64,000 bases of DNA from Prorocentrum cordatum (GCA_963575745.1 CAUYUJ010000088.1:1-64000), one strand, 5' to 3'. Positions 13,767-48,909 are shown, counted from the first letter of the stretch. Program-made: numbers and translations. The notes: a model not told the origin generated them from the letters alone.

Positions 13767-13857
13767 CCAAAAAAAACCCACACAAAAAAAACACCACAAA
13801 AAAAAAAAAAAAAAAAACAAAAAAAAAAAACCACACCCACACAAAAAAAACACCACA

Positions 13858-13893
<36 letters not shown>

Positions 13894-13899
13894 ACACTG

Positions 13900-13958
<59 letters not shown>

Positions 13959-13963
13959 TCTCT
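13688..13963. repeat. (TC)n microsatellite, 5' flank of the retrotransposon (with an internal A-rich stretch)
   Basis: Direct observation. Confidence 0.95.
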
Positions 13964-14088
13964 AGTCTCGGCTCGAGAGTGCCCAGCACTCAGACCGCAG
14001 CCGCGACGCGAAGCGCCCCGCCTCGGAGTCAGACTCCCAGGCCTCGCGAGACCGGAGGGGTCCCAGCAGGACCCTACTGATTCGCGTC
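13964..14088 (+). ncRNA. Candidate HDV-like self-cleaving ribozyme (nested double pseudoknot) at the element 5' end
   Basis: Hand-folded: P1 13964-69/14048-53, P2 14005-12/14081-88, P3 14013-15/14045-47, GG 14054-55, P4 14057-63/14069-75, J4/2 A-CUGA 14076-80. L3 is atypically long. Confidence 0.55.
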
Positions 14089-14115
14089 ACCTCTCCTCAC
14101 CAGAGCGCCCGCGCA

Positions 14116-16716
14116 ATGGCCCCCAAGAAGCCGGAGCGCCGTCGCTCTTCTAAGCAGCCTCCGAGTTCCCGTCCCGCGCGCCCTGCTGCCGAAGGGTCTC
14201 TCCTTCAACGCAAGCAGGACTGCGTCGCAGCGTTCAAGCAAGCGGGGTCTGACCGCCCCACGGCCGCATACAACGGGCTTGCCGAACTGAACGCAGACGA
14301 GCTCCAGGCAACGTACGACATGCACAAGTCCAACACGAAGAAGCTTGGCAGCGCCCTGATCCGCATGTGCGCCGCCAACCAGATCAGCTACACGCTTGAT
14401 CACCACCAGCGCAGCAAGCCTAAGCGCAGTGGCGGTGACACATCACACCCACCAGCTGGGTCCGCACGTCTTCAGGCTGCGGACGCCCAATTCATCGCCT
14501 TGGACCCGACCTTTTGGAAGGTCCCTGTCCTCGCCGAACCCACATCTCCTGACGACGGCAAGACGTACAAGCCCAGTATCAGCCTCCACGACTACGAGAG
14601 CGGTGAACGGCTGCTGCAACACCACCTCGAGCAGGGTAAGCGTACCACGGGTCAGCTTGCGATTGCTGTCATGGGCCCAAAAAACGATCACTACGTCGGT
14701 ACCGAGCTCGCCGTCCCCGTGCTGAAGCGTCACCCCAAGGCGCCCAAAGTGGTCCACACGCACGTCCCCGTGACCGTGTACCAGCTGGGCACCAAGGAAG
14801 TCGCCTGCACGGAAAAAGTATCCGTCGCCACCATCGATCCTGCCGACCACGTATGCTGGATTCGGGTGACCATACATGAAACCGAAGCCATTCCAACGAA
14901 CTGCATGAACATCAGGCCTTCGGAGGACCAGTTCTCGGGACGTGCCCCCGGAGGTGCCCCCGTGAACCGTGGTCCACGCGCCAAGGTCCTTTTCCGAGGG
15001 GAACTCCGCTCCCAGGCCAAGGCGGACAAGGCGCGCAAAACCAAAAAGCACACGGAGTCCCAGAAAGACGCCGCCGCCAGTAAGCCTCGATATTCTCTCC
15101 ATACACCTTTCAAGGCCCTCTTCCACGGCAACTTTAAAGCCGTCACCATCCTCGAACCCTGCAAAAGCCTAGGCAGGTATGGATCGGGCGTCGGAAAGAG
15201 GTCACTGGCTGCCACCTTCGGCGTCAGTCTTCAAGCGGTTGACAAGGTCTTGGCGGGTTCAGGGCAACTCGGCGCCACCTACGACCTCAGCAACGTAGGT
15301 GCAGACGAGCCCACTGCAGATAAGTACCAGACCGTGTGGTTCCCTGAGGACCAGCCCATCACGATGGCAGATGCGTTCCAGAAGTCGGTGGATTTCAAGG
15401 CCCTGGGAGTCGTCAGGCACGGCAAGTCAGGCTTATTGGGGATCCGTGTTTCACGGGGGTCAGACGCCGCCAAGGCCGCTGCCGTCAGCATCCGCGGCTG
15501 CGAGGCCACCCTCGCCAAGACGCGCTACCGCATCACTGGCATTGCGGCACGCCACGCCACGCTGACCCAGCTCGCCAAGACTCTCACGGGCCCGTCCGTT
15601 AAATGGGACTGTGAGGTCTACCACACCGCCTGGGACCCAGCCACTTCGGCTCAGTTTGCCTTAGTGCGCGCCCATCGTCCCCCACTCACATATACGGTAC
15701 GGGTCGCAGGGTGCCACATCCCGTGGAGCATCACCGAGGCCCCGCTGGCTGAGGTGGTGCCGAAGAGGGACAACGTTACCATCGTCACGCCTACCACCAT
15801 CACAGAGCCTGTGACGCCGCCAGCCCGTGGTGGCGGCTTCAGCCCCGCCACTGGCACACTCCTCACCAAAGCGGCCCAGAGCCCTAACCTCCACGACCTC
15901 ATGACTGCCACGCCCAAAGGCAAGGGCGTCGCACCGCTCCTGATCCCCAAGGAGGAGCCTTTAGCCAATCGCCACCGATCCTCCAGCGGGAAACGCGACG
16001 CCACGCCGCACGCAAGATCACACGGCGCCCCAGGCCGCAGCTCCTCTGCACCCCCGCACGGCACGGACGGAGCCGCTGAACAGACGGCCGTCCCAGGATC
16101 AGGTGGTCATGACTCTCGGCTTGGCACGGTGGCGGCTGAAGGTGGGGGCCACACCGAAGGGGACGCTGCCACAGCCGCCGAAGTACCAGGCGACGCTGAC
16201 GACGTCGAGATCCTCTCATCAGGCGATGAATACAGCGTGGCTTCCCACGAACTCAACACCTTCGGCGAACGCTTCGCATCGGCCTCTAAACTGCCAGATG
16301 CCGCCACGACCCGCATCCAACACATGGAACAACAGCACGAGCTGCTTGCCAACACGGTGGATAACATGCAGGTTCAGCTTGCGGGCGTTCTCTCCTCCCA
16401 GGCCATACTTACGGAGCACGTCTCAGGTTTGGAACGGGGGCTTGCCACCGTCGTCACCCAGCAACAGACGGCAACCGCCGAAGCCGCTGCACTGCGTGGC
16501 GACATCCAGGCCCTCCTCGGGCACCTCACGGGGGGCACCATCCACCTGCCACAAGTGGCCACTCTGGAAACTAAGAAGGAGGAAGCTGCAGCGGCCGCTG
16601 AACCCGTGGCTGTCTGCGGGTGGATCGACCAGCCAGGCCAGGTCACCCCAGGGACGGGGCCCCCAGGGGCTGACAAAGGCAAAGACAAGGGTCGGGCCAC
16701 CCAGGAACCCTATTGA
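14116..16716 (+). CDS. Retrotransposon ORF1 (866 aa; putative RNA-binding protein with C-terminal coiled coil)
   Basis: Intact ATG-to-TGA ORF ~150 nt inside the element 5' end; basic N-terminus; alpha/beta RRM-like segment RYRITGI...KWDCEV...FALVRA; heptad-like segment RIQHMEQQHELLANTVDNMQVQL...LRGDIQALL. Confidence 0.8.
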   Translation: MAPKKPERRRSSKQPPSSRPARPAAEGSLLQRKQDCVAAFKQAGSDRPTAAYNGLAELNADELQATYDMHKSNTKKLGSALIRMCAANQISYTLDHHQRSKPKRSGGDTSHPPAGSARLQAADAQFIALDPTFWKVPVLAEPTSPDDGKTYKPSISLHDYESGERLLQHHLEQGKRTTGQLAIAVMGPKNDHYVGTELAVPVLKRHPKAPKVVHTHVPVTVYQLGTKEVACTEKVSVATIDPADHVCWIRVTIHETEAIPTNCMNIRPSEDQFSGRAPGGAPVNRGPRAKVLFRGELRSQAKADKARKTKKHTESQKDAAASKPRYSLHTPFKALFHGNFKAVTILEPCKSLGRYGSGVGKRSLAATFGVSLQAVDKVLAGSGQLGATYDLSNVGADEPTADKYQTVWFPEDQPITMADAFQKSVDFKALGVVRHGKSGLLGIRVSRGSDAAKAAAVSIRGCEATLAKTRYRITGIAARHATLTQLAKTLTGPSVKWDCEVYHTAWDPATSAQFALVRAHRPPLTYTVRVAGCHIPWSITEAPLAEVVPKRDNVTIVTPTTITEPVTPPARGGGFSPATGTLLTKAAQSPNLHDLMTATPKGKGVAPLLIPKEEPLANRHRSSSGKRDATPHARSHGAPGRSSSAPPHGTDGAAEQTAVPGSGGHDSRLGTVAAEGGGHTEGDAATAAEVPGDADDVEILSSGDEYSVASHELNTFGERFASASKLPDAATTRIQHMEQQHELLANTVDNMQVQLAGVLSSQAILTEHVSGLERGLATVVTQQQTATAEAAALRGDIQALLGHLTGGTIHLPQVATLETKKEEAAAAAEPVAVCGWIDQPGQVTPGTGPPGADKGKDKGRATQEPY

Positions 16717-16875
16717 AGGTGCCTCAGAGAGCCTGCCTCAGCCCTCCGAGGAAGCGCCTTCAGAGGCATCTCTTCCCTCTCCGCGTCGTATCTCTTTCTT
16801 GTCACCTCATGTCTGTTTTGGCAGCAGTACGCGCAAGCTATCTGGTGTAGGGACACCCGTCATCTTGCAGGGGGC

Positions 16876-19800
16876 GTGATTGTTGCAATGTACGTGAGCA
16901 TGCAGGGGTATTTGAGGATGCGTGCTGACATGCAGCTTTTGGCTTATCGCTCGCGCCGCCCGCCAGGCCTCGCCATCATGTGGCGCCTTGCCTGCAGCCT
17001 GGCCCTCCCCTCGATCGCTGGAGCACACCCGTCTTCAGGCGGTGCGCCCCAGCATGGAGGAGAGTTTTTCCTGCGACACGCTGAACGTGGGACTTTCTTC
17101 TACCTTAACGATGACAGCATCAACAAGCACGATCACTGCACCATTTTGGACCCGATCATGAACAGCACCGCCGCCGCGGGTCCGTGCGGCAACGGAGCGC
17201 TGGGCGCCATCGCAAGCGCATCCACGCCCTCGTCAACTACGACACATGCTTCGCAGTCCACCCCCAGCGTGGCTTCGACCGTTGTGCAGCATATCCTTGA
17301 CGGGGACGTTGACAAAGGCCAGGCACGCAGTGGCGGCTTCAGCCCCGCTGGCGTGCCCCGCTATAGCCCCACGGGTTTCATTACCCCTCTGTGCGCTAGG
17401 GGCGAACCCGAGGAGGACCCCGCTTTCTGGCACCTGATGATGATCCGAGCCCGGCTCATACCGTGCGCTGCGGCGTGGGCACCAGGTGAGGACCACCAGG
17501 ACGTGTTCTGGGCATGGCTCGAGGACTGCGTCCCGTACATCCTGGCGACGCTCCATCTGCCACAGTACGACCACCTTTTCCAGGAGGACTCCGAGGAGAC
17601 AACCGACGCCCTGCGCCAGCGCACCGCGATCGACATGTGCGAGGACATCTGGTATAGAGCGGGCCCCGACAGACAGCGCACAAACCGCAACCTCACTCGT
17701 ATCCAGGGTAGCCGCGAGTATTCCACCCGCTACTTTGGCCTCCTTCTGGAATACCAGGGTGCACGTGCCCAGCTTGTCGGCCCTGAGGCTTTCGCGGCAC
17801 CTTTGCCGCCATACCTCTCACGGGCCCACGCCTTACTACCAAGAGGCCTTCCTCCACCCGACCAAGACGCCCTGGCGTACCTCGCGGATGCGATCCTGCA
17901 CCACCCGACAGACATGCAGCCGCTTGTCGAGGCGGAGCTCGCCGCGGCACCGATTGAACCGCTTAACCCACCACCGCCAGCTGGCCTCGCCCAGCACGCC
18001 ACGGGCGATCAGGCCGCAGACGACCCCGTATCACGGCTGCTCCAGCACATCGCGGCCAGCGACATCAGCGACACACCCCTGGACTCGTTCCACGCGTCGG
18101 ACGATATCAGCAACATATCCCTGGGCTCGGTCCATGTGGACGATAGCCAGGACGACATGGAAACCCAGGATCGCGACGGCACGACACCACCAGGCGACAC
18201 GGCCCAGCGTGACCGTGACAGTGTACCCCACCTAGGGCACACCTCGTCGCACAGCAGTCCGCCTAACAACTCGGCCCAGGCCGACCCCTGCGCACAGCTC
18301 AACGACGCTGAAGGCGCCACTGCCGCCGACGCGACAAGCCATGCCACTGCATCGCCAGCTCATGCCAGCCCGCGCAGTGGCGGCTTCAGCCCCGCTGCAG
18401 CACTGGCTGGACCTGGACATCCCCAGACCGCCATCGACGACGACCCCATCGACGACGAGTACCCAGATGCCAGCGGTTCCCACGAGGCCCAGCACAGCGC
18501 AGCGGCATCACGACACTGTGGCTGCCTCATTTGCCTCTTGGTGGCCACGTACGCCATCGTGATAGCAATGCCGTACAAGGACCAGATCGATGGGTACTTG
18601 CCGACACCGAGCCGAGACCCCAGCTACCGACAACGACGACGACGTGAAGCGGCGGCACCAGGCCCATCTGTGCCCACTACACCCCGACGCACAACGGCAT
18701 ACAACGTCAAGTCCGCATTGTGGGCTACTCTCAAGTGTACCAGCGCCAAACTCAGAGATTTCGTCTCGGGCGGAGCCAGCGCAGTCGGGGTCGGCCTCGG
18801 GGGTTGTCCTGAAATGGGCCAGCGGCAAACTCGGAGCTATTGCCACCTGGCGGAGTGGCGTGCGGTCTTCTACTCGTCGGCGCCAAACTCCTCGCTCAAG
18901 GAGCCGTCGGACACGTAGGAGCCCGCATCTGTGCGCGTGCCCTGGACTCATCCACGGCCCAGTGGTGCCTCCGCTGTTGCCAACCGAGCAGGAGGCCGCG
19001 TGATGAGGCCACATACAAAATGCCGCGCACGCTTGCCGACGAACACGAGGACCAGCACGTGCACTCACTCCGACATCCGCTGCTACAGGAACACTACGCC
19101 GCAGCAGTTGCCGCCGCAGTCGCCGATGTCACCACCGCCACCACCGCCGCCATCGTCGAAGTCACTGCCGCCGTATCGCGAGCCTCGTCTGTCACACCAC
19201 GATCGACCAGCCCGTCCCCGCGAGACGGCTCCAAGAGCGGAGCGGCCTACGGTAACCTACCGACAAACGAAGATGCCACAGCCCACGGCAGTGACACCGA
19301 GGCAAGGGAAACACGTGAGCACACCCATGTTAGCCCGTGGTCCATCTTTCGACATGTTGATGCTCGTGGTTCCTCTACCGACACGGACACCCAACCACCA
19401 CGACGGCGAGCACGCTATGCATCACCCGCCAGGCCCCAGGCGCCTTCAGGCCCTGGTATGCCCTACGCAGCCCTCAAGCCACCGACGCGCAACTTACGCA
19501 ACACTATCCAGCGCGACCCAGCGGTCCCCGTGCCGCCGACGAGCATCCTCAACGCCCTGTACCAAAACGGCTTTGCGCTGGGTAACAGTGGCGTGTCTAC
19601 AGAGGACATCAAAGACGCTCTGCGACTCCACGACCATCCTCGATTCACCCATGATCCAACACTCCAAGCGCTGGTGCCGTGGACTGACATCATGCAGAGG
19701 CCCCCGAACCGCCTCACTTGGGTGCTGGAAGACTCGGGCGGGAACTCAGGCGAGACGATCTTCCCCTACCTCACGTGGGACCTCCGCCAACCCACCACCG

Positions 19801-22800
19801 ACGCGCCCACTGTCTTCTGGCATGGGACCCGCGGCGACCTTGCGGCCCGTCTTGCTGCCAGCGGAGGGCACCTCTTGCCAGGCCCCCGCCGTGAAGCGAA
19901 GGGCCGAACTGGCACCAACGTTGGCCGCACGTACGCGAGCGTGCACCCTTCGCTGGCCGCGTGGTACGCAATGCCGCCCCACCCGCCCTACAGTCTTGAA
20001 GACGACACCCTCGCGTGGGACCCATCGCACTCTGGATGTGCGAGGCCACCCAACCACCGCGCGGGGAAAACAGGCACAACTACGTGAAAGGGGAGGCCCA
20101 CGGAGCGCGCCTCATCTACCCTCGGGTCCTGAGCCTCCTCATCCGCATGGACTGGTGCGCCCCCACAGAAGCTGCCTCCAGGTGCCGTGCCCTACCACAT
20201 GCCTATGGCATGGGCGACTGTGCGCACGCCCTCCACATCGCTGGCTACGATCATCCAGATCTCCGTGAGGCGGCTGAAGCTCACGACCAAGAAGCTAGCA
20301 CCAGGCGCAGGCTGGACATCGCGGCAGCGTGGCCACCGCCGCAGGCACTATACTCGCCAGAGGCAGCGCGAGTATGGGCCAAACAGCACTACGACACTGA
20401 AGCAGCCACCAGGGACGACCCTAACCAGCCCCGCCCACGCGTCTCGCTTCGCAAGCTCCAGCTGGACCCGAAACCACTCATCGACCTGGTGTACACCGGC
20501 TTGCAAGCCGTCCCCGTGCGGGGGCATCCTGACGCACGCGAGTCGCGCCCCAGCGGCTCCAGCCCTGGGGCCGCGTCTGGCCCACCGCGCACTCACAAGT
20601 CAGGCACAGCCCTGGCGCACAGTCCATACCGCTCATCGACGACATCAGGAGCCGACGAACGCCGTACGCCTTCCCTCATCAGCGCGGCCGCCGCCCTCGC
20701 CCGAGGCCACGCCCGCCCACGGCGATCCGCCTCCCGTTCGTCACGGCAGAGTGGCGGACACTCCACCTCGGACAACAGCGACATCGAGACGTGGGAGCAC
20801 ATCGAGACGGAAGAGGAGCCGACTGCCTACCACGTCCTCGCCTACCACGTCCGCGATGTGCGGGCCCGTGTCAATGCCCCTGGCATCGAGGTCTGGCTTG
20901 ACCCTGGCGATCACCACGACGGCGCCTACTTACCGTGGGGGACGACCGTCATGTGCCATCGCGTTATCGACCCTGCGGTGGCGGGGCGCGACGGCTGGGT
21001 CATCCTCCACCACGACCACGGCGACACCACTACCAAGCTCTGGGTACCGACCCAAGTCCACGTCAAAGCGGACGACACTTGGCGCACGGTCATGGTACCA
21101 GCGGACATGGGGCCCCAGTGGATCGAGCGCCATGCCGAGGACGCTCGCCTCCCCGCCGAGGTTGTCCGCACTACAGGCCAATCCTGGTTTGCCGACGTCT
21201 GGCCCTTGTGGGATCGCCCCCGACCTCACCCAGACGACCCAGGCACAAACGAGCATGCGCTCCCGCCTCTACCAGGACGCTGGTCTTGCCTACAGTGTCG
21301 TTTCCAATGCTGTCAGTACTGCGCGGCTCGCCGCAACACGCAGCTCGGCACCTCGGGCCAACCAACGTGCCCAGACTGTGCCCGCAGCGGACTGCGTGCA
21401 CTTATGGACTGGTCCACGGACTACTCTTGCAACAGCTGGACGTGTGCATACAGCACCGACAACAGGGACTCCGACACATGCTGCCTGTCCAGCAGGTGCC
21501 CCCATCCGCCCAGTCCACACAGCCTGCTCGACGTCCGTGCCACAGGGATGCCGCCGCACATCCTTGCCCGCCAATACGGCAACGCGCCAGCCCACCACGA
21601 CATCAAGGAACCCCCCCGAGCGCCTTCAGGCCCCGGGGGGGAACCTCCACAACCAGGCCAAGCAGGTTACCAGGGTCAATGGTACTTCCCACCGAGGCCG
21701 CGGCGCGTCCCCAGGCAGGGACTGCCTGACGGCACGAGGCGGCCACCTGGGTTCACAGGAACGGGGATGCCCGAAGAACCGTCCCCCGACCAACCTCTCT
21801 GGAGGGAAGGCGACGTGCTCTTCGGCCCCCACCAGGCCCTCAAGGAGGAATTCACCTTCAACAAGACGGTCCGCCGACCCTACTCCCTAGCCATCACCAA
21901 CATGTACAGGGACCGTGTCACGGTCAGGACCGTCTGCGAGTCTATCGCCGAGCGCATCCACACTACCCGCACCCGCTGGCGCGATGTGGTACTGTACTGG
22001 GACGCCGAGGGTGGCCCTGGGCCTCAAGCTCTCGACTATGACATGCGACTCTGCGACGCCATGGTGAGCCGTGCCACGACCGAAGCCGAGCTGAACCACG
22101 ACCGCAGCAACCGTGGTAGTTTCTGTCTTTATGGACCAGCGCACCAGCGAGCTGTAAACATCACGGCGCTCTCCGAGCCGCAGAACATCGACTACACGGA
22201 GCATGCGCGGCGATTCTCACCCGTAGGGGAGACCTACCCAGACCATGCCTTCGAGCACGTCTATCGGGGCTGGCAGCGGCCCGACGTGCCCACCATCCTA
22301 CCCGACACCCGCCCCCTCTCGAGAGCTGACCAGCAGCGATATCAACAGCACCAGCAGCGCATTCAGCAGCGCGACCAACGCGACGCAGGTCAGCCGAGCA
22401 CGCCACGCTACCGCTCCCCCGCGCGCGTCCCGACAGGCGGCAGCACGGTGTACGGCGGGGCTGCCGCCTATCACCGTGGCCCCATTGGCGCCAGGCCCGC
22501 GGCGGCTGGAGCAGCCGCCTCCAGCTACGGCCATGCCCCTCACGCCAGGGCGCACCCAGCTGTCATCGGCTACCCGCGTGCACTCGTGCAGGCCCCCCCA
22601 CGGGCCACTTCGCCCGTGCCAGGGTCCACGCGTGCCTGGGGCCACTACCCAGGCCGCCATGACAGCACCCACAGCAACCAGCCCGCAGTGGTAACCCCTG
22701 CGGCTTCAGCCCAGGGGGCTGCAACAAACCGTGGCAGGACAGGGCGCCCTGAAGGATGGCGTGATGCGAACGTGCGTGCTTGGCAACCGCGCCAGCACAC

Positions 22801-23680
22801 GCCCCCGCCAAACGCGGCCGCAGCGCTGCGCCCTGCCCAGGCAAAACCTGCCCCACCTGAGCGGGAGAGGCAGCCGCTCGTCCCGCTCGTCCTCACGTAC
22901 ACTCAGGCGCATCACAGCGCCTCCCCGCGGCACAGCGAGGGAAGCGCCCATCACGTCAGCCCCCGCCCCGACGCTGTCGACCCTGACCAGGCCACAGCCA
23001 CGGCGGAGGGCGGCACAAGCGCCTCCCGCCAGCCCAGACATCACCCTGCGCGGCGCCGATCCGATCCCCGAGCAGGGCGGATTCCGAGCGCGCTAATGCC
23101 CAGGCGACCTCGCCACGCGACCGCCACACGGGCGGGCGCGTCCCGCGCCGCAGGTCCTGCAGCCGCCACAGCCCACGCAAGGCCCCAGGGAGCTCCACGA
23201 GCTCGCCGCCTCGCGAGACTCAGGCTGATGGCCGAGCCCCCGAAGTGGTGCCACGCTTCGGTGCCAGCGTCATCGAACCTGGCCAGGTCGACCTCGAGCC
23301 GACGCCGTCCACGGACCACGAGCTGCCGCTGCCCACCCGCGTGGTCGTCCCCATCGACGAGGCGCCGACCTTCGACCCGTTCAAGAACAAGTACCGCGTC
23401 AAGGACCTTGCGGCGGGTTTCGGCGGCGGCTCACCGCTCTCACCCCAGAGTCGGGGCGGAGCCCCCGCCACCTCAGCCGCTGCCGCGGCAGCGGCGGCCC
23501 CGCGGGGAATCAGCCCTGTCCGCAACGTGGGCCTCACGGCAGCGGGCATGGACGAGGCCCAGCGCCAGGCCTACGACCGTGCTGCTGGAGCTGTTCCACC
23601 AGATGCTGCTCATCAAGATACTGACGGGGCGGGCGCGCCACCGCAGGACGGACCAGCGGTGTCGCGTGCGCAGTATATGT
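16876..23680 (+). pseudogene. Accessory ORF2 of the retrotransposon, broken by frameshifts (pieces 16876..18918, 18840..20087, 20015..~23200, 23245..~23680)
   Basis: Overlapping long + strand ORFs tile the region; they contain hydrophobic segments, an HGT...YAS...WYA ADP-ribosyltransferase-like motif and a Cys cluster. Joining them into one protein is inference. Confidence 0.55.
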
Positions 23681-23955
23681 GCGTGCGTTGTGCCGCTGCC
23701 GCGCCGAGCCGCCGCCGCTGGTTCGCTTTTGCTTTTGTGTGCGGCAGGACGGATCGAGGAGTCGCCTCCCTCTCCCTCTGCTGCCGTCTCACCTCTCCTC
23801 CCCTCGTCCCCTATGGTACTGAAGTGAGGAGGAGTTTTCGAGACAGTTTTACTGACGTTTATGACCCCCCCCTGGCGCAGTGCCGACCATGTCTCGCCTA
23901 TACTTCTGGCCTGACGGCGGCTTCAGCCCCGGCCAAGCTAATCCATAGGAACGCC

Positions 23956-24974
23956 ATGAGCTCCTACTGTGGCCAAGCCTTCTACCTGGGCGAGGGCCAG
24001 GCTGCCCTCCACCGTGCGGGGCGTGCCAACCCCAGCTCCACCGACGGAGACGGGCCAGGTCGCTCCATCCACCTCGTCAGCCTCAACATCACGAGTCTCC
24101 CAGCAAATTGGCCAACTATCACCGCTCTAGGTGTCGACCACAACGCCGCAGTCATAGCACTGCAGGAGACCCGACATGCCAAGCCTACCAGACAAGCCAT
24201 CGCTACCAACGCCGCCAATCCACACCACGGGGGATACCACGCCAGTCTGGGACCTGACCTGGATCTGGCGCGAGCCCAGCGCAGAGCTGCCCACGGCGGC
24301 ACTGACCACACCGTCGTGGGCAACACTGGCGCCTCGGGAGGGGTCGCCATCCTCTCCAAGGATGCCATCGTCGACTCCACTGTCGACGACACTGCGCCCT
24401 GTATCGTCACCCTCAAGGCCAAGAAAAGATGGCACGAGGCCTTCCTCCCGCTCTGCACTCAGCACCGCCGCAGGCGGCGACGAAACAACCACGGGCCCGC
24501 TGGGATCTACATAGCGAGCCTCTACGGGGTTGCTGGAGGAGACAGCACAGATCTTTTTCGGCTCGCTGACTGCGCCGCCGCAAGGGTCGGCTCAGCCCCG
24601 TATTTCATCTGCTGGACGCCAACACGAATATCGACGACAATCCACACCTGCTGCACATGATGCAGCACGGATGGTTTAACGTCGCTGAGGGCACACCAGA
24701 CCACACCATGCACACATACGGCAATATCCCTGACTGGGACCGCGTCACCAAGTGCCCCCGCACTTCGCGCATCGATTACATCATCGCCAACCAAGCGGCG
24801 CGATCCCTTGTCACCGACTTCTGCTATCTGCGAGACTTGCCAGCGAAGTCCCATGTTGGCCTGCAGGTCACGCTCGACCTCAGTCGCCTCGACCATACGG
24901 CCCGACGCCTTCTTGCCCCCACGCCCTACCCCCTAACGATGGAGCTCATGAGGGCCACGAACTGCAGGCATTAG
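23956..24974 (+). pseudogene. Apurinic-like endonuclease (APE/EEP) domain of the retrotransposon, frameshifted
   Basis: LVSLNITSL, VIALQETRH, SGGVAIL, IASLYG, FIC/(G)DAN split by a frameshift at ~24612, SRIDYIIAN, SHVGLQVTL. Confidence 0.88.
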
Positions 24975-25341
24975 GGACCCTCATCGCAGGGCGATACCAG
25001 GACCGCATGGAGCAGGCCGACACACGCGACGATGTGGAACGCATGTTCGCCCTGGCAAACGAGGCCAGCCATGAATGCCATCTCGCCCGTCTGCGCGACC
25101 TGCCACCTCCACCGCCAGACCACCCAAAAAAGAAGCCCCCCACCATGCACGGGCTCACGCCCACGTTCGAGGAGCGACCCGTTGTCCCCCGCGCCTTTCC
25201 CACCTACGGAGCTTCCACGATACACATGAACCGCCTGCGCAAGCTCCATCGGCAACTTTGTGAGCTTCGCTTCATCGGACAGCACCATCATTTAGACTGC
25301 CGTGCCATCCCGCCGTACCTGGCGCAGCGCATCGACTGCAC

Positions 25342-28300
25342 GTGGACCGCGGCCCGCCTCCTCTGTCACAGCTGCGCCCCACGGTTCTCCTGGCCTTTCC
25401 CGAGGCCTGGACCCCCGACGAGCCAGCACCTCACGGAGAGCACCTTGACTGTCTGATCCAAAACCTCGACCCAGAGCTGGCGCGACGTGCAAACCGTGCC
25501 AAAGCTGAACGCATCAAGATATGGGCTGAGGGCGTCCGCGAGCCAAGCGGGCGAAAGGCGGCCATATACGCACGGGCTGCTGACAGCTCGCCCACGGCGT
25601 ATCTCCGCACGCCTACCACTCCCGACGATACACAACTCCACTGCGACACCAACGCCTTTAAACCTGACAAAGCTAGCACGGACGATAGTGACGCCGACAC
25701 CGAAGCTGGCGGCTTCAGCCCCAGCGACGGTAGTTCGCCCGACACGGACAACGACGAAGACCACACTTGTGAACCACCACCTGCACAGGTCCCCGACACC
25801 CTCCCTGCCAACGCCATTGTTGCTAATACCAAAGACATGCTTAAGCTCATGGTCGACACCTGGGAGCCCATCCTGGGCAGGTACCGCGCCCGTGCAGGGC
25901 ATGACGCCGAAGCCATGCCGACGTGGGCTGACTTTTACGACGAGTACCGACAAGAGCTGCCTACGCCATCACCAGCAGCCCCTTTCCACCTCACCGACGA
26001 CCAACTCATCCACTTCATTCGCACCCGTTCACCGCGCCGTGCGGGGGGACTTGACGGCTGGACAACTAAGGAGGCTAAGGAGTTACCCGACAACATCCTT
26101 CGCCTCTTCGCCAGCGTCTTACGCGCTACGCAACGCACTGGCACCATCCCAGAACCCCTCCTTCACGTGCCAAACCCGTGCCTCCGAAAAGGCCGAGGGG
26201 AACTCCCGACGGACCAACGACTTCTCTCGGTGCTTTCCGTTTGGATGTACGCGTGGGAAGCGCCAGCTTACCGCAGCCTCACGGACTGGCGGAAAGGATG
26301 GACCCACGCCACGAGTTTTGGCGCTGTTCCCAAAGCTACCATTGGGGACGTCAGCACCTCTCTCGCCCTGCGCATCGAGCACGCCAGGGCTTTACTCCTG
26401 CCCTTATCTGGGGCTGCCCTTGACCGACAGAAGTGTTTCGACTACCTCATCACGGACATCTGCCTTAACCTTGCGCTCCACGCGGGGTGCCCCCAAGACA
26501 TCGTAACTGTCCGCAGAAACTTCTACAGTCGCCACAAACGCTACATCCGCATGAACGGAGCGTACTCTAAGGAATTGGCCAGGACCAACGGTCACCTCCA
26601 GGGACGCTCATGGTCCCTGGACGACATCAAGCTGCTCATGTGTGTGTGGACAAAGAGACAGCATCGATACGTTCCTCGATCACTCAGCACTACCTTTGTT
26701 GACGACAGCAACTCCACTACCCACACCGCGTCTGAGTTGCAGAAATCTCTTGACGAAACCGCCAAGTTTGATCGATTCTCAGGTCAACGCATTCACCCTG
26801 GCAAAGTGGCGGGGTGGGCGCTCACCGACGAGCTTCACGCCGCCGTTACCCAGTTCACTCTAGCGGAACGGCCCTTACGCGTGGTCGACTCCTTCAAGCT
26901 CGTCGGGAGTTACATCAACGCCGAGGCAGCGCCGTCTCCAGCCGCGCTTAACCTCACGGCCATCGCTGACGCCCGTGTACGGAGGGCGACCAGTCGCCTG
27001 CCGCGCATTGGCAAGCTCCCATCGCCGATGCTTATTAAGGCGCGGCACGCCCGTTCCCTTGCTGCCAGCGTCTGTACCACGGGCACCGACATTCAAGCCC
27101 CATCAGGCCCTGCCAAAATTGCCTACAACCACGCCCTCAAGGCGGCTATCCGCCCCAAGGGGAACAAGCGGGTCGAGTTTTGGACTCTCATGGCCGTGTG
27201 CGTCCCAGGACACGCCCTGGAGATTGACGCCATCACGCAGCGTGAAGCTTTCCTGTGCCTGCGGCGACAGGTTAACCGCGACGTTACACTCTGCGGTCTC
27301 GTCAGGGATCTCCAACACCACGTCCAGACCCTGTTTGGTGGAGGACCTGTCGGACGACTCGTCCAGTCGCTCCAGCAGCTCCGGTGGACCTGGCCCACAT
27401 TTGGCATCATGTACGACGACTGGGGCTGCCAGATCAGCTGGCTGAACTTACCCCAAAACGCCTTCCTTCACATGCTGCGGGCCTCACAACGCAGAGCCTT
27501 TCTACGGAGGATCAAGCCACGGCGTCACGACCTTGGATACCTTGCCTCTGTCAGACAGGGCCTCGACCTCTTCGCCAGCACGTGGCTCGCCCGAACTAGA
27601 GGAGCAGCCAAATGCACTGCCTGGCAGCTGGCGCTCCACCTGAACTACCTGTCGGGCGGGGACCACACCCAACAGCGACGATCCCGATCAAACACGTCAG
27701 CTGACCCCAGCCCCATCTGCCGATACTGCGACGAGGAAGAGGGAACTCAGGAGCACACTGTCCGCGACTGCAAGTGCTGGGCCCGAGAAAGACTCCCTCT
27801 CACCACCCTCATCAGTGACGACCAGTGGGCCCGTCTCCCGCCGCACACAAGACACTGCGGGCTCTTCGACGAAGACCCAGCCCTCCTCGACCTGCAGGCC
27901 GACCTCGCGAGGGACCCGCTACCTCAGCCCATACCGCGGCCCCCCCCTGAGGGAGATCCTGCGGCTTCAGCCCAGGACTCCTACACCACCTACCTTGACC
28001 ACGACACTGGTTGGACATGGGTCTACGCTGCCACGGACGGTGCATGCACCAACCAAGCCATCCCATTGCTAGCACGAGCGGGATACGGCGTCTACTACGG
28101 CATCGACCACCGCATGAACTACAGTGCACGCGTTCACGGCATTACGCAGAACGCACAGCTTGCGGAGACCCTCGCCATTGTTCACCTCACGGCATGTGCT
28201 GAACGGCCCGTACACGTTTTCGTGGACAACCAGGCGGTGGTCGATGGGTTCCAAAGTATCATCGACGGACACTCACCACCGCAGGGCACGCACGTGGAGC

Positions 28301-28490
28301 TCTGGGAAAAGATTCACCGATGCGTCATGGCCAAGCCCAACATGTTCCGCGTCGAGAAAATCGCAAGCCACCTGGGAGACATGGGCATCGACCTCGGGCT
28401 CATCGGGCCCATCGCGGAGGAGTTCAAATCGTCAGGCTGACGCCCTCGCCACAACGGCGGCACGTACTCACAACCTTCCAGACGACATCG
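25342..28490 (+). CDS. Reverse transcriptase + CCHC zinc knuckle + RNase H of the retrotransposon
   Basis: AGGLDGW, LRKG, RLLSVLS, LDRQKCFD (26419), GHLQGRSWS, FVDD (26695-26706), SGQRIHPGK; CRYC-x8-H-x4-C (27718-27771); RNase H TDGAC, AETLA, VDNQ, with the final NRQADALA in the next frame after ~28425. Confidence 0.93.
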
Positions 28491-28623
28491 TCGAAGCTGC
28501 CAAAACACGACATCGCCAAGCGACCGTGCTTCATGGGGTCGCTGTCGCCATCTACGAGCGCAGACACCGCACACTCCCGCTCCCACACCGCAGGGCTGGT
28601 TTACAGCTGCGGAACTCAACAAA

Positions 28624-29784
28624 ATGGAACCAAACCCCCTGCTGTCGGACCAGGCACCACCCGCGGCTGGACCAGACATCCCACAGAACCCGGACGAGCT
28701 CTGGGCCGAGGCCCAATGGGCGATATTCGACGAACAGGAGGACGACCCTTTCGGCTTCGGCGGGGGACTTGACTTCCTAGGCGACGGGCCAGCCAGCGCC
28801 AACCTTGCCCCGTCGGGCATCCGCACGACGCCCTCGACTCCGCCACCGAGAGCGGCACCGCACCCACATGACGACGCCGCTCACCTCCAAGACGCTGACG
28901 AACAGGAAGACGACCCGTTCAGCCTCGGTGGGGGATTGGACGTCCTGGACGACGGCCCAGCCAGCGACAACCCTGCCCCGTCGGGCAACCTCTCGACGCC
29001 TACCGCGACTCCGTCTCCGAGAGCGACATCGCTCCCATATGATGATATCGGTCACCGCCAAGACGCCGACGACGACCTGGGTGACCCCCGCGGACTGAGT
29101 GGCATAGACGACGCACCGCCGACACCCCACGCTGCCGACCATGCCGCCCTTTCGAGACGCCACCCTACTACGCGGATGACCTCAGGGCCCTCGCACGGCA
29201 TCATGATTGGTCCCACCGCGCAAACCACTCCGCCCCCCCACCAGCGGCAGCCCGCGGGGGCGGCTTCAGCCCCCCCGCAGGGCACTGAACCAGGCAGGCC
29301 CTCGCACCCCGTCCACGCTTCCATCGTTGCTGAGCGAGAGGATGCGGCTCTTCCGACCTCTCGGGGCGTGGCCCTAGCGGCTCCAGCCCTGGGGCCGCGT
29401 GCTCCCCTCCAGTCACCTTGCAAGAGTGACGGACGACAGCGTACAGGGTGCCGTACTACGCTAGTCCACCACCTGGACAGGCGTACCGAGGACCTCGCCC
29501 CTGTCACGAGGCCCGCGGCTGCTGGCACTGAACAGCCACCCCGCACCGACCGCGAAACCGAGCTGTCCCAGGCTATGGCCGCTCTCCAGCAGAGGTGTGC
29601 TGCTCTCGCCGCGGACCTCGCTGCCGCTCAAGCCCGCCAAGGCCCTCTACTCCAGCGCCTCCACAGCGCCGGGCGAGCCTTCGCCGAGCTGCTTACGCCC
29701 TCGTCCGATGGTGCCGTGCCGTCACTCACCATCCAAGCTATGCTGTCATCGTTCCGCGGCGCTCCACCTGGTGCCCCGCGCTAA
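28624..29784 (+). CDS. Acidic/proline-rich C-terminal extension (or separate ORF) with terminal coiled coil
   Basis: 386-aa open frame; the homologous frame is also open in the second copy (43212-44036, -). Confidence 0.6.
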   Translation: MEPNPLLSDQAPPAAGPDIPQNPDELWAEAQWAIFDEQEDDPFGFGGGLDFLGDGPASANLAPSGIRTTPSTPPPRAAPHPHDDAAHLQDADEQEDDPFSLGGGLDVLDDGPASDNPAPSGNLSTPTATPSPRATSLPYDDIGHRQDADDDLGDPRGLSGIDDAPPTPHAADHAALSRRHPTTRMTSGPSHGIMIGPTAQTTPPPHQRQPAGAASAPPQGTEPGRPSHPVHASIVAEREDAALPTSRGVALAAPALGPRAPLQSPCKSDGRQRTGCRTTLVHHLDRRTEDLAPVTRPAAAGTEQPPRTDRETELSQAMAALQQRCAALAADLAAAQARQGPLLQRLHSAGRAFAELLTPSSDGAVPSLTIQAMLSSFRGAPPGAPR

Positions 29785-30148
29785 TCTCCTCCTTCCTGCC
29801 TGCCCGTGAGTACGCGTGGCTCCGCGTCCACGGTGCCAGGGCGCGGGGGCGGGGGGTGCCCCGTCACTGCGCGCCGCATTGCGGCCAAGCGCCCAACTGG
29901 CGGTCTGCCAAGCCGCCTAGCCACGTGTCAGCACGTCGCCTTTCTTGTTGGGGCCTCTTTCTTCACGCGGTCTGACAGGTGAGATCATCACCGTCTGTCC
30001 GCCGTCTGTAGCGTCTGTCGCACTGCGCCGGGGGAGGGGTTTTTTGTTGCCCGCCCTCGTATCTAAAGGCTGCACCGCCGCAAATAGTGTTTAGCGAGTT
30101 GTCGCACCGCAGTGCGCTTCGCGGACGGACCCTGGTCCGCCTACTTGT

Positions 30149-30152
<4 letters not shown>

Positions 30153-30205
<53 letters not shown>

Positions 30206-30288
30206 TTTTATTTCTCTCTCTCTCTCTCTTTCTTTCTTTCTCTCTCTCTCTCTCTCTCTCTTTATTTCTCTCTCTCTCTCTCTCTCTT

Positions 30289-30323
<35 letters not shown>

Positions 30324-30335
30324 CTTTTTCTATTT
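30153..30335. repeat. (TC)n microsatellite, 3' flank of the retrotransposon
   Basis: Direct observation. Confidence 0.95.
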
Positions 30336-42558: not shown

Positions 42559-42621
<63 letters not shown>

Positions 42622-42700
42622 GAGGAGGAGAAGGAGAGAGAGAGAGAGAGATGGAGAGAGAGAGAGAGAGAGAGAGAAAACAGAAGAGAGAAGAGGAGAG

Positions 42701-42732
<32 letters not shown>

Positions 42733-42739
42733 TGAGAGG

Positions 42740-42771
<32 letters not shown>

Positions 42772-42844
42772 CCGGAGAGAGAGAAAGAGAGATGAGAGAG
42801 AGAGAGAAAGAGAGAGACGAGATTAAGGTGACAGGCCGAGAGAG
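42558..42844. repeat. (GA)n tract, 3' flank of the truncated retrotransposon copy
   Basis: Direct observation. Confidence 0.9.
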
Positions 42845-44036: not shown

Positions 44037-44245
<209 letters not shown>

Positions 44246-45645: not shown

Positions 45646-45754
45646 CTACGACGACTACTACTACTACTACTACTACTACTACGACTGCTACTACTACTAT
45701 TACTACGACTACTACTACTATTTCTACTACTACAACTACTACTACTACTACTAT

Positions 45755-45804
<50 letters not shown>

Positions 45805-45899
45805 CTACTACTATCACTGCCACTACTACTACTACTACGACTACTACTACTACTACTACTACCACTTACTACTACTACTACCACCACCACCACCACTAT

Positions 45900-45941
<42 letters not shown>

Positions 45942-45965
45942 GACTACTAACAAGATTACGAATTG

Positions 45966-46018
<53 letters not shown>

Positions 46019-46028
46019 ATACTGCGAA

Positions 46029-46082
<54 letters not shown>

Positions 46083-47115: not shown

Positions 47116-47159
<44 letters not shown>

Positions 47160-47182
47160 GACTACTACCACTACTACTACTA

Positions 47183-47248
<66 letters not shown>

Positions 47249-47303
47249 GTACTACGACTCGTACGACTACTTCTACTACTACTACCACTACTACTATTAT
47301 TAT

Positions 47304-47342
<39 letters not shown>

Positions 47343-47390
47343 CACGACTACTGCTACTAGTACTACTATTACAACTACTACTACAACTAT

Positions 47391-47431
<41 letters not shown>

Positions 47432-47761: not shown

Positions 47762-47792
<31 letters not shown>

Positions 47793-47801
47793 GTTCTACT
47801 A

Positions 47802-47836
<35 letters not shown>

Positions 47837-48695: not shown

Positions 48696-48728
<33 letters not shown>

Positions 48729-48840: not shown

Positions 48841-48909
<69 letters not shown>

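What the first reader, a model, noticed from the sequence alone, without database searches (positions are those of the whole stretch)
13964..30152. Giant (~16.2 kb) apparently tri-cistronic LINE with a ~6.8-kb accessory ORF between ORF1 and the APE-RT-RNase H ORF
Seen: one microsatellite-free block holds ORF1 (14116-16716), ~6.8 kb of further + strand coding-like sequence, then APE/RT/CCHC/RNase H and a further tail. The shared hairpin motif occurs in all three parts, which supports one transcription unit rather than nested insertions. Established: typical APE-type LINEs are about 3-8 kb with one or two ORFs. Inference: a new, complex non-LTR family carrying cargo functions.
Basis: partly seen in the sequence, partly recalled or inferred. 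Interest (0 to 1): 0.82.

Follow-up and report, generated by a model that had tools for sequence, protein, structure and literature searches.

The report
Giant 16-kb LINE with hairpin signals
This is a decayed copy of a very abundant, unusually long (about 16.4 kb) jumping gene of the LINE type from a GC-rich marine eukaryote, whose enzyme gene carries a huge extra front part of unknown function and whose RNA is studded with regularly spaced hairpins.

Summary
The block is real and is one repeated unit, not a nest of insertions. It runs from 13964 to the end of a (TC)n tail (about 30362-30383). A second, 5'-truncated copy lies at 44036-42607 (-). Both copies sit between (TC)n arrays.

In four public runs every part (ORF1, the 6.8-kb middle, pol, tail) is multi-copy at similar summed depth. 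No listed joint skips the middle.

The three-cistron reading does not hold. This copy has 1-nt indels at every point where its coding frame switches, and other copies carry the compensating indels. Read that way, only two stops remain in 5,270 codons: the ORF1 stop (TGA 16714, also the end of 5 of 5 full-length relatives) and TAA 29782. The family therefore has ORF1 (866 aa, RRM-like fold plus coiled coil) and one giant ORF2 of about 4,300 codons. ORF2 is a roughly 2,350-aa extension of unknown function, then APE, RT, CCHC, RNase H and a tail.

Twelve + strand hairpins with covarying stems lie only inside the element, six intervals being 1.05-1.22 kb.

Verdict: a new variant of an L1-like LINE. 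Cargo and hairpin functions remain unknown.

The parts
13906..13963 (+). (CT)n array directly upstream of the element: target microsatellite, or a target-site duplication made of it
   Evidence: TRF; sequence
13964..14115 (+). 5' end and 5' UTR of the full-length copy
   Evidence: Sequence. The first bin, 13950-14490, is covered at full summed depth in 4 of 4 runs.
14116..16716 (+). ORF1, 866 aa, ending in TGA at 16714. RRM-like region at 15319-15753; long helix or coiled coil at 16300-16527.
   Evidence: ORF list. Seven homologues; the 5 full-length ones (37-82% identity) end at the same ...PY. AF2 model and RRM matches up to Z 8.0. Coordinates.
16717..16887 (+). Spacer between the ORF1 stop and the first in-frame ATG (16888). 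It is pyrimidine-rich and open in the ORF1 frame.
   Evidence: Sequence; codon statistics
16888..24033 (+). N-terminal extension of ORF2, about 2,350 codons, function unknown. In this copy it is broken by 1-nt indels at about 18804, 18847, 20016 and 23038.
   Evidence: Frame path. Compensating indels in other copies (table 4; loose end at 23039). No stop along the path.
20729..22303 (+). Conserved core of the extension: a beta-rich SH3-like part, a Cys-rich zinc-finger-like part and a ubiquitin-like-looking part
   Evidence: P0004, 59% identity over 526 aa. 26 relatives, 16 of them at E<=1e-10. AF2 residues 21-155 at pLDDT about 90; fold matches are weak.
24034..24935 (+). APE endonuclease domain, broken in this copy by 1-nt indels at 24612 and 24931
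   Evidence: Pfam. tblastn with P0002 in frame 1, then in frame 3. Indels.
25792..27450 (+). Reverse transcriptase domain (FVDD at 26695). A further 1-nt indel lies upstream at 25369.
   Evidence: tblastn with P0001, P0002 and P0003; Pfam RVT_1 E 0.09; Atlas 0.98
27718..27780 (+). CCHC zinc knuckle (C-x2-C-x11-H-x4-C)
   Evidence: Read from the translation; kept in P0001
28030..28450 (+). RNase H domain. Its last motif (NRQADALA, 28427-28450) lies in another frame in this copy, which produces the apparent stop at 28438.
   Evidence: PDB profile hit E 1.1e-4. Indels at 28426 and 28597 in other copies. Coordinates.
28598..29784 (+). C-terminal tail of ORF2. It holds a 170-nt internal duplication (28729-29072) and a coiled-coil-like end (29551-29694). 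Stop TAA at 29782.
   Evidence: Self-BLAST; copy-number variants of the duplication (table 5); weak ATG16 match
29785..30152 (+). 3' UTR
   Evidence: Sequence. Aligned at about 90% with copy 2. Fold z-score -1.68.
30153..30383 (+). (TC)n 3' tail
   Evidence: TRF; the copy-2 alignment runs to 30383
15821..29403 (+). Span holding 12 hairpins. Cores start at 15835, 17335, 18382, 19442, 20555, 21622, 22702, 23919, 25711, 27963, 29262 and 29379. Each has a variable outer stem, a bulged C, a G(G/C)C stem, a U(U/C)CA loop and the matching G(C/G)C stem.
42607..44036 (-). Second copy, 5'-truncated: the last 1.1 kb plus the (TC)n tail. Its upstream side adjoins a (CT)n array (44037-44240).
   Evidence: BLASTN 90.2% over 1,436 columns; sequence

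Best explanation
The block is a defective copy of a very abundant, roughly 16.4-kb APE-type non-LTR retrotransposon (LINE) with an L1-like layout.

The intact family has two ORFs in the same frame, separated by one conserved TGA:
- ORF1 (866 aa) is an RNA-binding, Gag-like protein with an RRM-like fold and a long coiled coil.
- ORF2 (about 4,300 codons) is one polyprotein-like product: a roughly 2,350-aa N-terminal extension of unknown function, then APE endonuclease, reverse transcriptase, a CCHC knuckle, RNase H, and a roughly 400-aa tail with a coiled-coil-like end.

The element copies itself by target-primed reverse transcription (inferred from the family type). It ends in (TC)n and lands in (TC)n microsatellites (shown for 2 of 2 copies).

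Its RNA carries 12 hairpins with a fixed loop, a fixed bulge and covarying outer stems. They lie in stretches that encode Gly/Ser/Pro/Ala-rich linkers. I infer that they are cis-acting protein-binding sites used to assemble or protect the long RNP, with ORF1p the most likely partner. That step is a guess.

The window copy is dead. It has at least nine 1-nt indels and scattered private substitutions.
For: One unit, multi-copy:
- In 4 of 4 runs all 30 bins of 13950-30160 are covered. 90,333, 7,439, 1,145 and 2,277 contigs were laid from X1, X2, X8 and X3 at 85% likeness or more.
- My hand means of summed word depth for ORF1 / middle / pol bins are 9.6k / 9.6k / 14.2k in X1, 8.2k / 8.2k / 13.6k in X2, 56 / 89 / 87 in X8 and 314 / 424 / 590 in X3 (from table 2).
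- At the variable sites listed, 14 to 76 distinct X1 contigs were counted, in every part (table 3).
- None of the 15 listed joints (of 22) skips the middle. Several listed small variants are in frame: net -123 nt (two forms), -42, -39 and -168 (tables 5 and 5c).

LINE hallmarks:
- A 5'-truncated second copy shares the 3' end and the (TC)n tail.
- (TC)n or (GA)n runs of 20 nt or more in the window adjoin the two copies in 14 of 15 cases.

Fused ORF2:
- Every frame switch found from codon statistics and from tblastn with relatives coincides with a 1-nt indel carried by other copies, at 18804, 18847, 20016, 24612, 24931, 25369, 28426 and 28597 (table 4) and at about 23038 (loose end).
- In X8 five of these eight are in all the depth at the site.
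- Along that path, 5,270 codons hold only TGA 16714 and TAA 29782.

ORF1 as a separate cistron: 5 of 5 full-length relatives end at the same ...PY.

The extension is a real protein: 59% identity over 526 aa with 6 gaps to P0004, and 26 relatives.

Domains. The order RT-CCHC-RNase H is that of L1 elements with RNase H (PMC5348765, passages read).

ORF1 RRM fold: Z 8.0, rmsd 2.2 A, 70 residues aligned of a 78-residue chain, and most of the listed matches over residues 463-551 are RRM domains.

Hairpins:
- 93.3% of cells are paired, against 73.1% in shuffles. 5 of 10 pairs have changes on both sides. 0 of 500 shuffles reach the covariation score.
- The two best new matches of the covariance model in the whole window are on the + strand inside the element, and both carry a compensatory change in the inner stem.
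- Nine of 10 folds have z <= -2.
- Six consecutive intervals are 1047-1217 nt; 1 of 200,000 random placements is as regular.
Against: - No single record spans the element. The laid contigs are mostly 100-500 nt, so contiguity of ORF1, middle and pol in other copies is inferred from even cover and the absence of skipping joints. It was not seen directly, and the tool warns that contig depth is not copy number.
- The compensating indels are a minority of the depth in X1 (about 4-37% by site) and about 27-74% in X2. A large share of copies therefore shares the window's broken frames.
- The indel near 23038 rests on loose ends only (8 reads in X1, 1 in X8).
- P0002, a relative at 36-53% identity, starts with a Met about 55 aa before its APE. 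Its lineage may therefore have a separate pol ORF, or the gene call may be cut short.
- RT and APE score below Pfam's cut-offs, also in the relatives.
- The only related DNA locus found (L001, 73% aa identity in RT) lacks a hairpin at the place matching 25711.
- ORF1 relatives below about 50% identity have GHNP where closer ones have GGFSP, so the hairpins are not deeply conserved.
- No binding partner was tested.
Confidence: 0.74

Rival explanations
1. A truly tri-cistronic LINE: ORF1, a separate accessory ORF (about 16.9-23.8 kb), and a separate APE-RT-RNase H ORF starting at an ATG near 23.95 kb.
For: - In this copy frame 2 stays open to a stop at 23825-23827, and an ATG lies at about 23957 in frame 1.
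- Codon statistics are least coding-like at 23.7-24.0 kb.
- P0002 and P0003 begin with a Met and a hydrophobic stretch shortly before APE.
- The indel near 23038 that fuses the frames rests on few loose ends.
Against: - Frame 1 is open from 22987. It reads like protein from about 23.2 kb (for example ...FDPFKNKYRVKDLAAGF...), whereas frame 2 there is Arg/Ser/Pro-rich filler.
- At 23701-24000 frame 1 has 0 stops while frames 2 and 3 have 4 each.
- GC3 is 0.87 in frame 1 at 23101-23400.
- All other frame switches are explained by indels seen in other copies.
Confidence: 0.12
2. Composite locus: a normal-sized LINE into which an unrelated element or a captured host gene (16.7-23.9 kb) was inserted in this copy, or in a subfamily only.
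For: - The middle has no recognisable TE domain.
- No record spans the junctions.
Against: - The middle is covered at the same summed depth as ORF1 in X1 and X2, and higher in X8 and X3.
- No listed joint skips it, and no cluster of loose ends at 16.7 or 23.9 kb is among those listed.
- Strand composition (GC skew -0.06 to -0.20) is uniform from 14 to 30 kb.
- The hairpins continue through it in the same orientation and spacing.
- It has no microsatellites, terminal repeats or internal tail.
- It joins in frame to both neighbours once the indels are allowed for.
Confidence: 0.04
3. Single polyprotein by readthrough. ORF1 and ORF2 are in the same frame, so ORF2 is made as an ORF1-ORF2 fusion by occasional readthrough of TGA 16714, as in gammaretroviral Gag-Pol, rather than by reinitiation at ATG 16888. 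This is a variant of the best explanation, not an exclusive rival.
For: - The frame is the same, and a single stop is kept in 5 of 5 full-length relatives.
- The 57 codons after the TGA are open in frame 1, while the other two frames have 3 stops each in the 100 codons of 16801-17100.
Against: - An open run of 57 codons is expected by chance about one time in five (my estimate from the stop density).
- The stem-loop after the TGA is not better than shuffles (z -0.96; 30 of 200 shuffles fold as well).
- The spacer is the least coding-like stretch.
Confidence: 0.15

Closest known systems
L1-group LINEs with an RNase H domain (plant Ta11-type L1, oomycete L1)
   Same: - Two ORFs.
- ORF2 carries an N-terminal APE, then RT, then a CCHC motif upstream of a C-terminal RNase H. 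According to PMC5348765 (passages read), that order is peculiar to these L1 groups.
- ORF1 has an RRM-like fold and a coiled coil. The L1 ORF1p architecture is recalled, not taken from a call.
   Different: - About 16.4 kb instead of the usual several kb (recalled).
- ORF2 has a roughly 2,350-aa extension in front of APE and a roughly 400-aa tail behind RNase H.
- The coiled coil of ORF1 is C-terminal.
- The RNase H has His before the last Asp motif (IASHLG), so it is not the Arg-type 'archaeal' RNase H described there.
- The tail is (TC)n, not poly(A).
- RT phylogeny was not done.
Kibi elements of fish ((TC)n-specific APE-type LINEs)
   Same: Insertion within TC microsatellites. PMC3812793 (passage read) lists four Kibi elements as targeting TC microsatellites. 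Here 2 of 2 copies are flanked by (TC)n on both sides.
   Different: The host is different (a GC-rich marine eukaryote). The size, the ORF2 extension and the hairpins differ. Relatedness of the RTs was not tested. The clade of Kibi (Tx1) is recalled.
Dispersed protein-binding RNA hairpins such as iron-responsive elements or the packaging-signal hairpins of ssRNA viruses (recalled analogies)
   Same: Several copies on one RNA of a short hairpin with a fixed loop and a bulged C, and stems that keep pairing while changing sequence.
   Different: The loop and bulge are different. The hairpins lie inside coding sequence of a retrotransposon. The spacing is about 1.1 kb. No binding protein is known. 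This is an analogy of design only.
Giant retroelements of other classes (Athena/Terminon Penelope-like elements, Ogre-type LTR elements; recalled)
   Same: Retroelements that grew far beyond the usual size by adding ORFs or domains.
   Different: Those are Penelope-like or LTR elements. This one is an APE-type LINE, and the addition is fused into ORF2.

Membership tests
APE-type non-LTR retrotransposon (LINE) | Reverse transcriptase domain of the non-LTR type | tested here: met
   Pfam RVT_1 is only E 0.09. The ESM Atlas first hit scores 0.98 with 190 shared features, and its cluster has RVT_1 in 52% of members; 27 of 30 hits fall in that set. The relative P0003 has RVT_1 at E 3.1e-5, below the gathering score. 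FVDD motif at 26695. The evidence is moderate, not strong.
APE-type non-LTR retrotransposon (LINE) | Apurinic/apyrimidinic-like endonuclease N-terminal to RT | tested here: inconclusive
   Exo_endo_phos E 5.5e-5, 23.5 bits, against a cut-off of 24.5. Only profile positions 27-86 are matched, because the domain is frameshifted. P0003 scores 4.6e-5, also under the cut-off.
APE-type non-LTR retrotransposon (LINE) | No LTRs, a simple-repeat 3' tail, and 5'-truncated copies sharing the 3' end | tested here: met
   Self-BLAST finds no terminal repeats. Copy 2 holds only the last 1.1 kb plus the (TC)n tail. A loose end at 20515 in X8 fits another truncated copy.
APE-type non-LTR retrotransposon (LINE) | Target-site duplication | not testable with these tools
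   Both flanks are (TC)n, so a duplication cannot be told from the target array.
L1 group (L1/Tx1) of LINEs | RT phylogeny places it in the clade | not tested
   No Repbase or RTclass1 set was available. Only 3 relatives of the RT ORF were found in 5.8 billion proteins.
L1 group (L1/Tx1) of LINEs | ORF2 order APE-RT-CCHC, with RNase H (if present) after the CCHC | tested here: met
   APE 24034-24935, RT 25792-27450, CCHC 27718-27780, RNase H 28030-28450. Criterion taken from PMC5348765 (passages read).
L1 group (L1/Tx1) of LINEs | ORF1p with coiled coil and RRM | tested here: inconclusive
   The AF2 model has mean pLDDT 46.7; residues 400-545 reach 62-81 (10-residue block means). RRM matches reach Z 8.0 to 6.2, which is about the level the tool calls common. 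Long helix at 729-804.
Microsatellite-specific LINEs (Kibi-like, (TC)n) | Copies inserted within (TC)n arrays | tested here: met
   2 of 2 copies in the window have (CT)n upstream and a (TC)n tail downstream. 14 of 15 (TC)n/(GA)n runs of 20 nt or more in the window adjoin these copies. The sample is only two insertions.
LINEs with 2A-like peptides | D(V/I)ExNPGP-like motif | tested here: not met
   No NPGP in any + frame of the element. One HPGP lies in a non-coding frame. The distant relative P0023 has GIDGNPGP after the conserved core.

The most novel reading that the evidence does not exclude
This may be the longest LINE described so far, and one that has converged on a virus-like genome plan. 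It has a 16-kb RNA with a Gag-like ORF1, an in-frame leaky or reinitiated stop, and a 4,300-aa polyprotein whose 2,350-aa front part supplies new activities. About a dozen packaging-signal-like hairpins, spaced roughly every 1.1 kb, would be bound by the element's own RRM protein to build and protect the RNP. This could explain how so long a LINE is copied full-length so often.
Probability: 0.2. Interest if true: 0.85.

Novelty: new variant of a known kind. Interest (0 to 1): 0.68.

Why it matters
LINEs are usually thought to be limited to a few kb and one or two modest ORFs, because long templates are rarely copied to the end. Here a 16.4-kb family with a 4,300-codon ORF2 appears to be among the most abundant repeats of a marine eukaryote, and cover is nearly as high at the 5' end as at the 3' end.

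It offers three things:
- A natural case for asking how processive a LINE RT can be.
- A large set of conserved protein domains with no known family, attached to a retrotransposition machine.
- A simple, testable RNA signal: a hairpin with a fixed loop and bulge, repeated at regular distance inside coding sequence.

It also shows that the apparent multi-ORF structure of a single decayed copy can mislead.

Tried and rejected
- Whole-genome search: no genome is held for this window.
- Earlier findings of the scan: nothing by place, genome, sequence or words.
- RNA evidence: no RNA holder listed, so nothing can be said on expression.
- Related DNA loci:
  - The JGI metagenome scan with the conserved core of the extension found none (335 pattern matches, 0 confirmed).
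  - The scan with the RT alignment found one 1,001-nt locus only.
- Function of the extension:
  - Pfam at E up to 10 gave only chance-level rows.
  - PDB sequence searches of three pieces gave nothing below E 0.17.
  - ESM Atlas gave no usable hit for 18849-20015.
  - The AF2 model of the core has mean pLDDT 56. The SH3b-like match (VIA Z 6.3, Foldseek E 0.02) and the ubiquitin-like match (Z about 3.3) are below the level the tool calls meaningful.
  - My impression that 19.6-20.1 kb resembles an ADP-ribosyltransferase H-Y-E pattern is from memory, found no support in those searches, and is dropped.
- Rfam: 0 families in the whole window.
- Readthrough structure after TGA 16714: not better than shuffles.
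- 2A-like peptide: none in the element.
- A polypyrimidine...CAG acceptor-like stretch at 16770-16825 was noticed but not tested as an intron.
- Selection test: the 40 best-supported differences are private changes of this copy (codon positions 13/11/16; 26 nonsynonymous, 14 synonymous). They show decay of the copy and say nothing on selection in the family.
- Literature: six searches found no description of this family or of any LINE of this size. The phrases 'giant non-LTR' and 'longest non-LTR' had 0 occurrences. Repbase could not be consulted, so an entry there cannot be excluded.

Full report
**What is in the sequence.**

The window is GC-rich (about 0.6-0.69 over most of it) and no genome is held for it. 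Between a (CT)n array (13906-13963) and a (TC)n array (30153-30362) lies a 16.2-kb stretch without microsatellites. Its strand composition is uniform, with GC skew from -0.06 to -0.20 and mostly positive AT skew.

Stop-to-stop ORFs on the + strand tile the whole stretch. Codon-position GC (low GC2, high GC3) marks one coding frame at each place. That frame changes as follows: frame 1 to about 18.8 kb, frame 3 to 20.0 kb, frame 2 to about 23.0 kb, frame 1 to 24.6 kb, frame 3 to 24.93 kb, frame 2 to 25.37 kb, then frame 1 to 29.78 kb.

**It is a LINE with a (TC)n tail in (TC)n targets.**

Self-BLAST finds a second copy at 44036-42607 on the minus strand. It is 90.2% identical over 1,436 columns to 28960-30383, that is, the last 0.8 kb of coding sequence, the 3' UTR and the (TC)n tail. 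It is cut off at its 5' end, and a (CT)n array adjoins that upstream end.

Both copies are therefore flanked by (TC)n on both sides. Of 15 (TC)n/(GA)n runs of 20 nt or more in the window, 14 adjoin these two copies.

The pol domains are present but far from the standard profiles:
- APE: Pfam E 5.5e-5, just under the cut-off.
- RT: Pfam E 0.09. The ESM Atlas first hit scores 0.98 and its cluster carries RVT_1 in 52% of members; 27 of 30 hits fall in that set.
- CCHC: a C-x2-C-x11-H-x4-C knuckle at 27718-27780.
- RNase H: a family profile against PDB finds human RNase H1 at E 1.1e-4.

The order RT-CCHC-RNase H is the order described for L1 elements with RNase H (PMC5348765, passages read). TC-microsatellite-specific LINEs are known from fish as Kibi (PMC3812793, passage read).

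**The middle belongs to the element.**

Twenty public runs hold part of 16000-25999, mostly marine, estuarine or plankton metagenomes plus three labelled organisms. I laid the Logan contigs of four runs (X1, X2, X8, X3) on 13950-30160 at 85% likeness or more.
- 90,333, 7,439, 1,145 and 2,277 contigs were laid. In X1, 29,193 are at least 99% alike, 37,932 are 95-99%, 21,548 are 90-95% and 1,660 are lower.
- All 30 bins are covered in all four runs.
- My hand means of summed word depth for ORF1 / middle (16655-24228) / pol (24229-28556) bins are 9.6k / 9.6k / 14.2k (X1), 8.2k / 8.2k / 13.6k (X2), 56 / 89 / 87 (X8) and 314 / 424 / 590 (X3).
- The tool warns that such depth is not copy number. I use it only to say that the middle is as repeated as its neighbours. 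The 14-76 distinct X1 contigs at the variable sites listed, in every part, say the same.
- Of 22 joints, the 15 best supported are listed, and none skips 16.7-23.9 kb.
- The one long skip (15849 to 29798, one X8 contig, 21 nt on the short side) starts a few bases after the hairpin at 15835, and I discount it.
- No record spans the element, since the listed pieces are 112-498 nt. Contiguity in other copies is therefore inferred, not seen.

**The copy is broken, and the family has two ORFs, not three.**

Table 4 lists 1-nt indels carried by other copies:
- 18804 and 18847 (one base fewer)
- 20016 (+G)
- 24611/24612 (+T or +A)
- 24931 (+T)
- 25369 (+A)
- 28426 (one base fewer)
- 28597 (+G)

These are exactly the places where the coding frame of the window copy switches. 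They are also where tblastn with the relatives P0001 and P0002 jumps frame: APE in frame 1 to 24612, frame 3 to 24935, RT in frame 1 from 25792.

The remaining switch, frame 2 to frame 1 near 23.0 kb, matches loose ends before 23039 in X1 (8 reads) and X8 (1). These read ...CAGCC where the window has ...CAGA, which is one extra base.

Following these nine points, 5,270 codons from 13966 to 29784 contain only two stops: TGA at 16714 and TAA at 29782. The apparent stops at 18916 and 28438 lie in frames that are not the coding frame there. The last RNase H motif (NRQADALA) starts at 28427, right behind the 28426 indel site.

In X8 five of the eight table-4 indels are in all the depth at the site. 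In X1 they make up only about 4-37% of it, so many copies share the window's broken state. The window copy thus belongs to a defective lineage that was itself amplified, or that is simply the commonest variant.

The 40 best-supported single-base differences are private changes of this copy. They are spread evenly over codon positions (13/11/16) and 26 of them are nonsynonymous. The copy is decaying.

**ORF1.**

ORF1 runs from ATG 14116 to TGA 16714 and is 866 aa long. Seven homologues were found (37-89% identity). The five full-length ones (847-937 aa) all end at the same ...PY, so the stop is a conserved feature.

An AF2 model from this shallow alignment is poor overall, with mean pLDDT 46.7. 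It gives three better-defined parts:
- a helical part at residues 30-100;
- two beta-alpha-beta units at 400-545, with 10-residue pLDDT block means of 62-81;
- one long helix at 729-804.

Residues 467-545 match RRM domains, with Z 8.0, rmsd 2.2 A and 70 residues aligned for the best hit. Most of the other listed matches over this part are also RRMs, down to Z 6.2. Foldseek's best rows are tandem-RRM proteins at E 0.02-0.3. These values are at the edge of what the tool calls meaningful, so I take ORF1p to be an RNA-binding, multimerising protein only as a likely reading.

**ORF2.**

After a pyrimidine-rich spacer the first in-frame ATG is at 16888. From there to 29781 is about 4,300 codons.

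The first roughly 2,350 codons, up to the APE start at about 24034-24073, have no named domain. They are nevertheless real protein:
- The core at 20729-22303 is 59% identical over 526 aa, with only 6 gaps, to P0004.
- A profile of the two finds 26 proteins at E<=0.001 (16 at <=1e-10) among 1.84 billion representatives. Nearly all are short fragments from short contigs, at 24-96% identity in the alignment.
- Several length variants of other copies in 17.2-18.2 kb are in frame: net -123 (two forms), -42 and -39 nt. Two are not: net -43 and -40 (tables 5, 5c).

The AF2 model of the core is confident only for residues 21-155, a beta-rich SH3b-like part. A Cys-rich segment and a ubiquitin-like-looking segment follow. 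The fold matches are too weak to name a function.

Behind RNase H comes a roughly 400-aa tail with a 170-nt internal duplication, whose copy number varies between copies, and a coiled-coil-like end.

**The hairpins.**

GGCTTCAGCCC (up to 1 mismatch) occurs 12 times against 2.6 expected. Ten occurrences are on the + strand of the element and two are in copy 2.

Each motif sits in a hairpin of the same design: an outer stem of variable sequence, a bulged C, a 3-bp inner stem and a UUCA or UCCA loop. Nine of 10 fold with z <= -2.

On the 12 aligned sequences, 93.3% of cells pair, against 73.1% in shuffles and 36-59% when the partner columns are slid. Five of 10 pairs change on both sides, and 0 of 500 shuffles reach the covariation score.

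A covariance model built from them finds, as its two best new matches in the whole 64 kb, two more + strand sites inside the element: 21608-21646 (25.7 bits) and 19428-19466 (18.8 bits). Both have the inner stem changed from GGC/GCC to GCC/GGC, a compensatory change.

With these two, the cores lie at 15835, 17335, 18382, 19442, 20555, 21622, 22702, 23919, 25711, 27963, 29262 and 29379. The six intervals from 17335 to 23919 are 1047, 1060, 1113, 1067, 1080 and 1217 nt. One of 200,000 random placements has six consecutive intervals as regular. Note that two of the sites come from the weaker model matches.

The hairpins are read in at least two different frames (GGFSP, AASA, APSGP...). Where models exist they fall in low-confidence, linker-like stretches: ORF1 residue 573 and core residue 298.

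They are not deeply conserved. The one related DNA locus (L001, 73% aa identity in RT) has a shorter linker without a hairpin at the place of 25711. ORF1 relatives below about 50% identity have GHNP in place of GGFSP. Rfam has nothing.

The design (fixed loop and bulge, free stem sequence, many copies on one RNA) is that of a protein-binding site. I propose binding by the element's own RNA-binding protein for RNP assembly, at about one chance in three. RNase H-resistant primers for second-strand synthesis and pause or transfer sites for the RT are alternatives that I could not test.

**Verdict.**

It is a giant, complex LINE family and the middle is part of it. The best reading, however, is ORF1 plus one giant ORF2, and the copy at hand is dead.

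I found no paper that describes such an element. Repbase could not be checked. I rate it a new variant of a known kind.

Noticed in passing
window 13950-30160 (table 1): Differences between the window copy and other copies are strand-asymmetric. In X1, C>T occurs at 302 places and T>C at 294, against G>A at 96 and A>G at 134. This is although the + strand has more A than T (3249 against 2534; C 5971, G 4457). The other three runs show the same pattern.
   Followed up: partly
window 13768-13891: An A-rich stretch with a period of about 14-16 nt and long A runs lies between two (TC)n arrays just upstream of the element. It may be the tail of another retroposon inserted in the same microsatellite.
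   Followed up: no
window 45646-46082, 47116-49783, 59581-60984: Very long trinucleotide arrays: (CTA)145, (ACT)890 (2.7 kb) and, in the opposite orientation, (GTA)468. They account for the low-GC, strongly skewed parts of the window.
   Followed up: no
window 16770-16825: The spacer after the ORF1 stop ends in a polypyrimidine run followed by ...TTTTGGCAG, which looks like a 3' splice site, and AG|GTGCCT follows the TGA directly. A retained intron in a LINE would be odd. Not tested.
   Followed up: no
P0023 (relative of the extension core): A 732-aa relative carries GIDGNPGP, a 2A-like ribosome-skipping motif, about 70 residues behind the ubiquitin-like-looking part. The window element has no such motif.
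   Followed up: partly
P0032: An ORF1 fragment at 89% identity is filed at NCBI as a hypothetical protein of a Myxococcales MAG. It is probably a eukaryotic contig binned into a bacterial genome.
   Followed up: no
window 15002-15109 and 17187-18301 (tables 5 and 7): Other copies carry a different segment before 15109 (loose ends in X1, X2 and X3; a 106-nt skip in X8). They also carry many small length variants in 17.2-18.3 kb. Subfamilies therefore differ mainly in linker regions.
   Followed up: no
window 23690-23800; P0002 and P0003 N-termini: In the window and in two relatives a hydrophobic, Cys/Phe/Leu-rich stretch precedes the APE domain by 50-110 residues. It could be a membrane or signal-like segment, or simply a pyrimidine-rich RNA region.
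   Followed up: no
window 10994-11049, 30398-30426, 42440-42500: Long homopolymer runs are present: G56 at 10994-11049, and C runs just beyond the (TC)n tails of both element copies.
   Followed up: no
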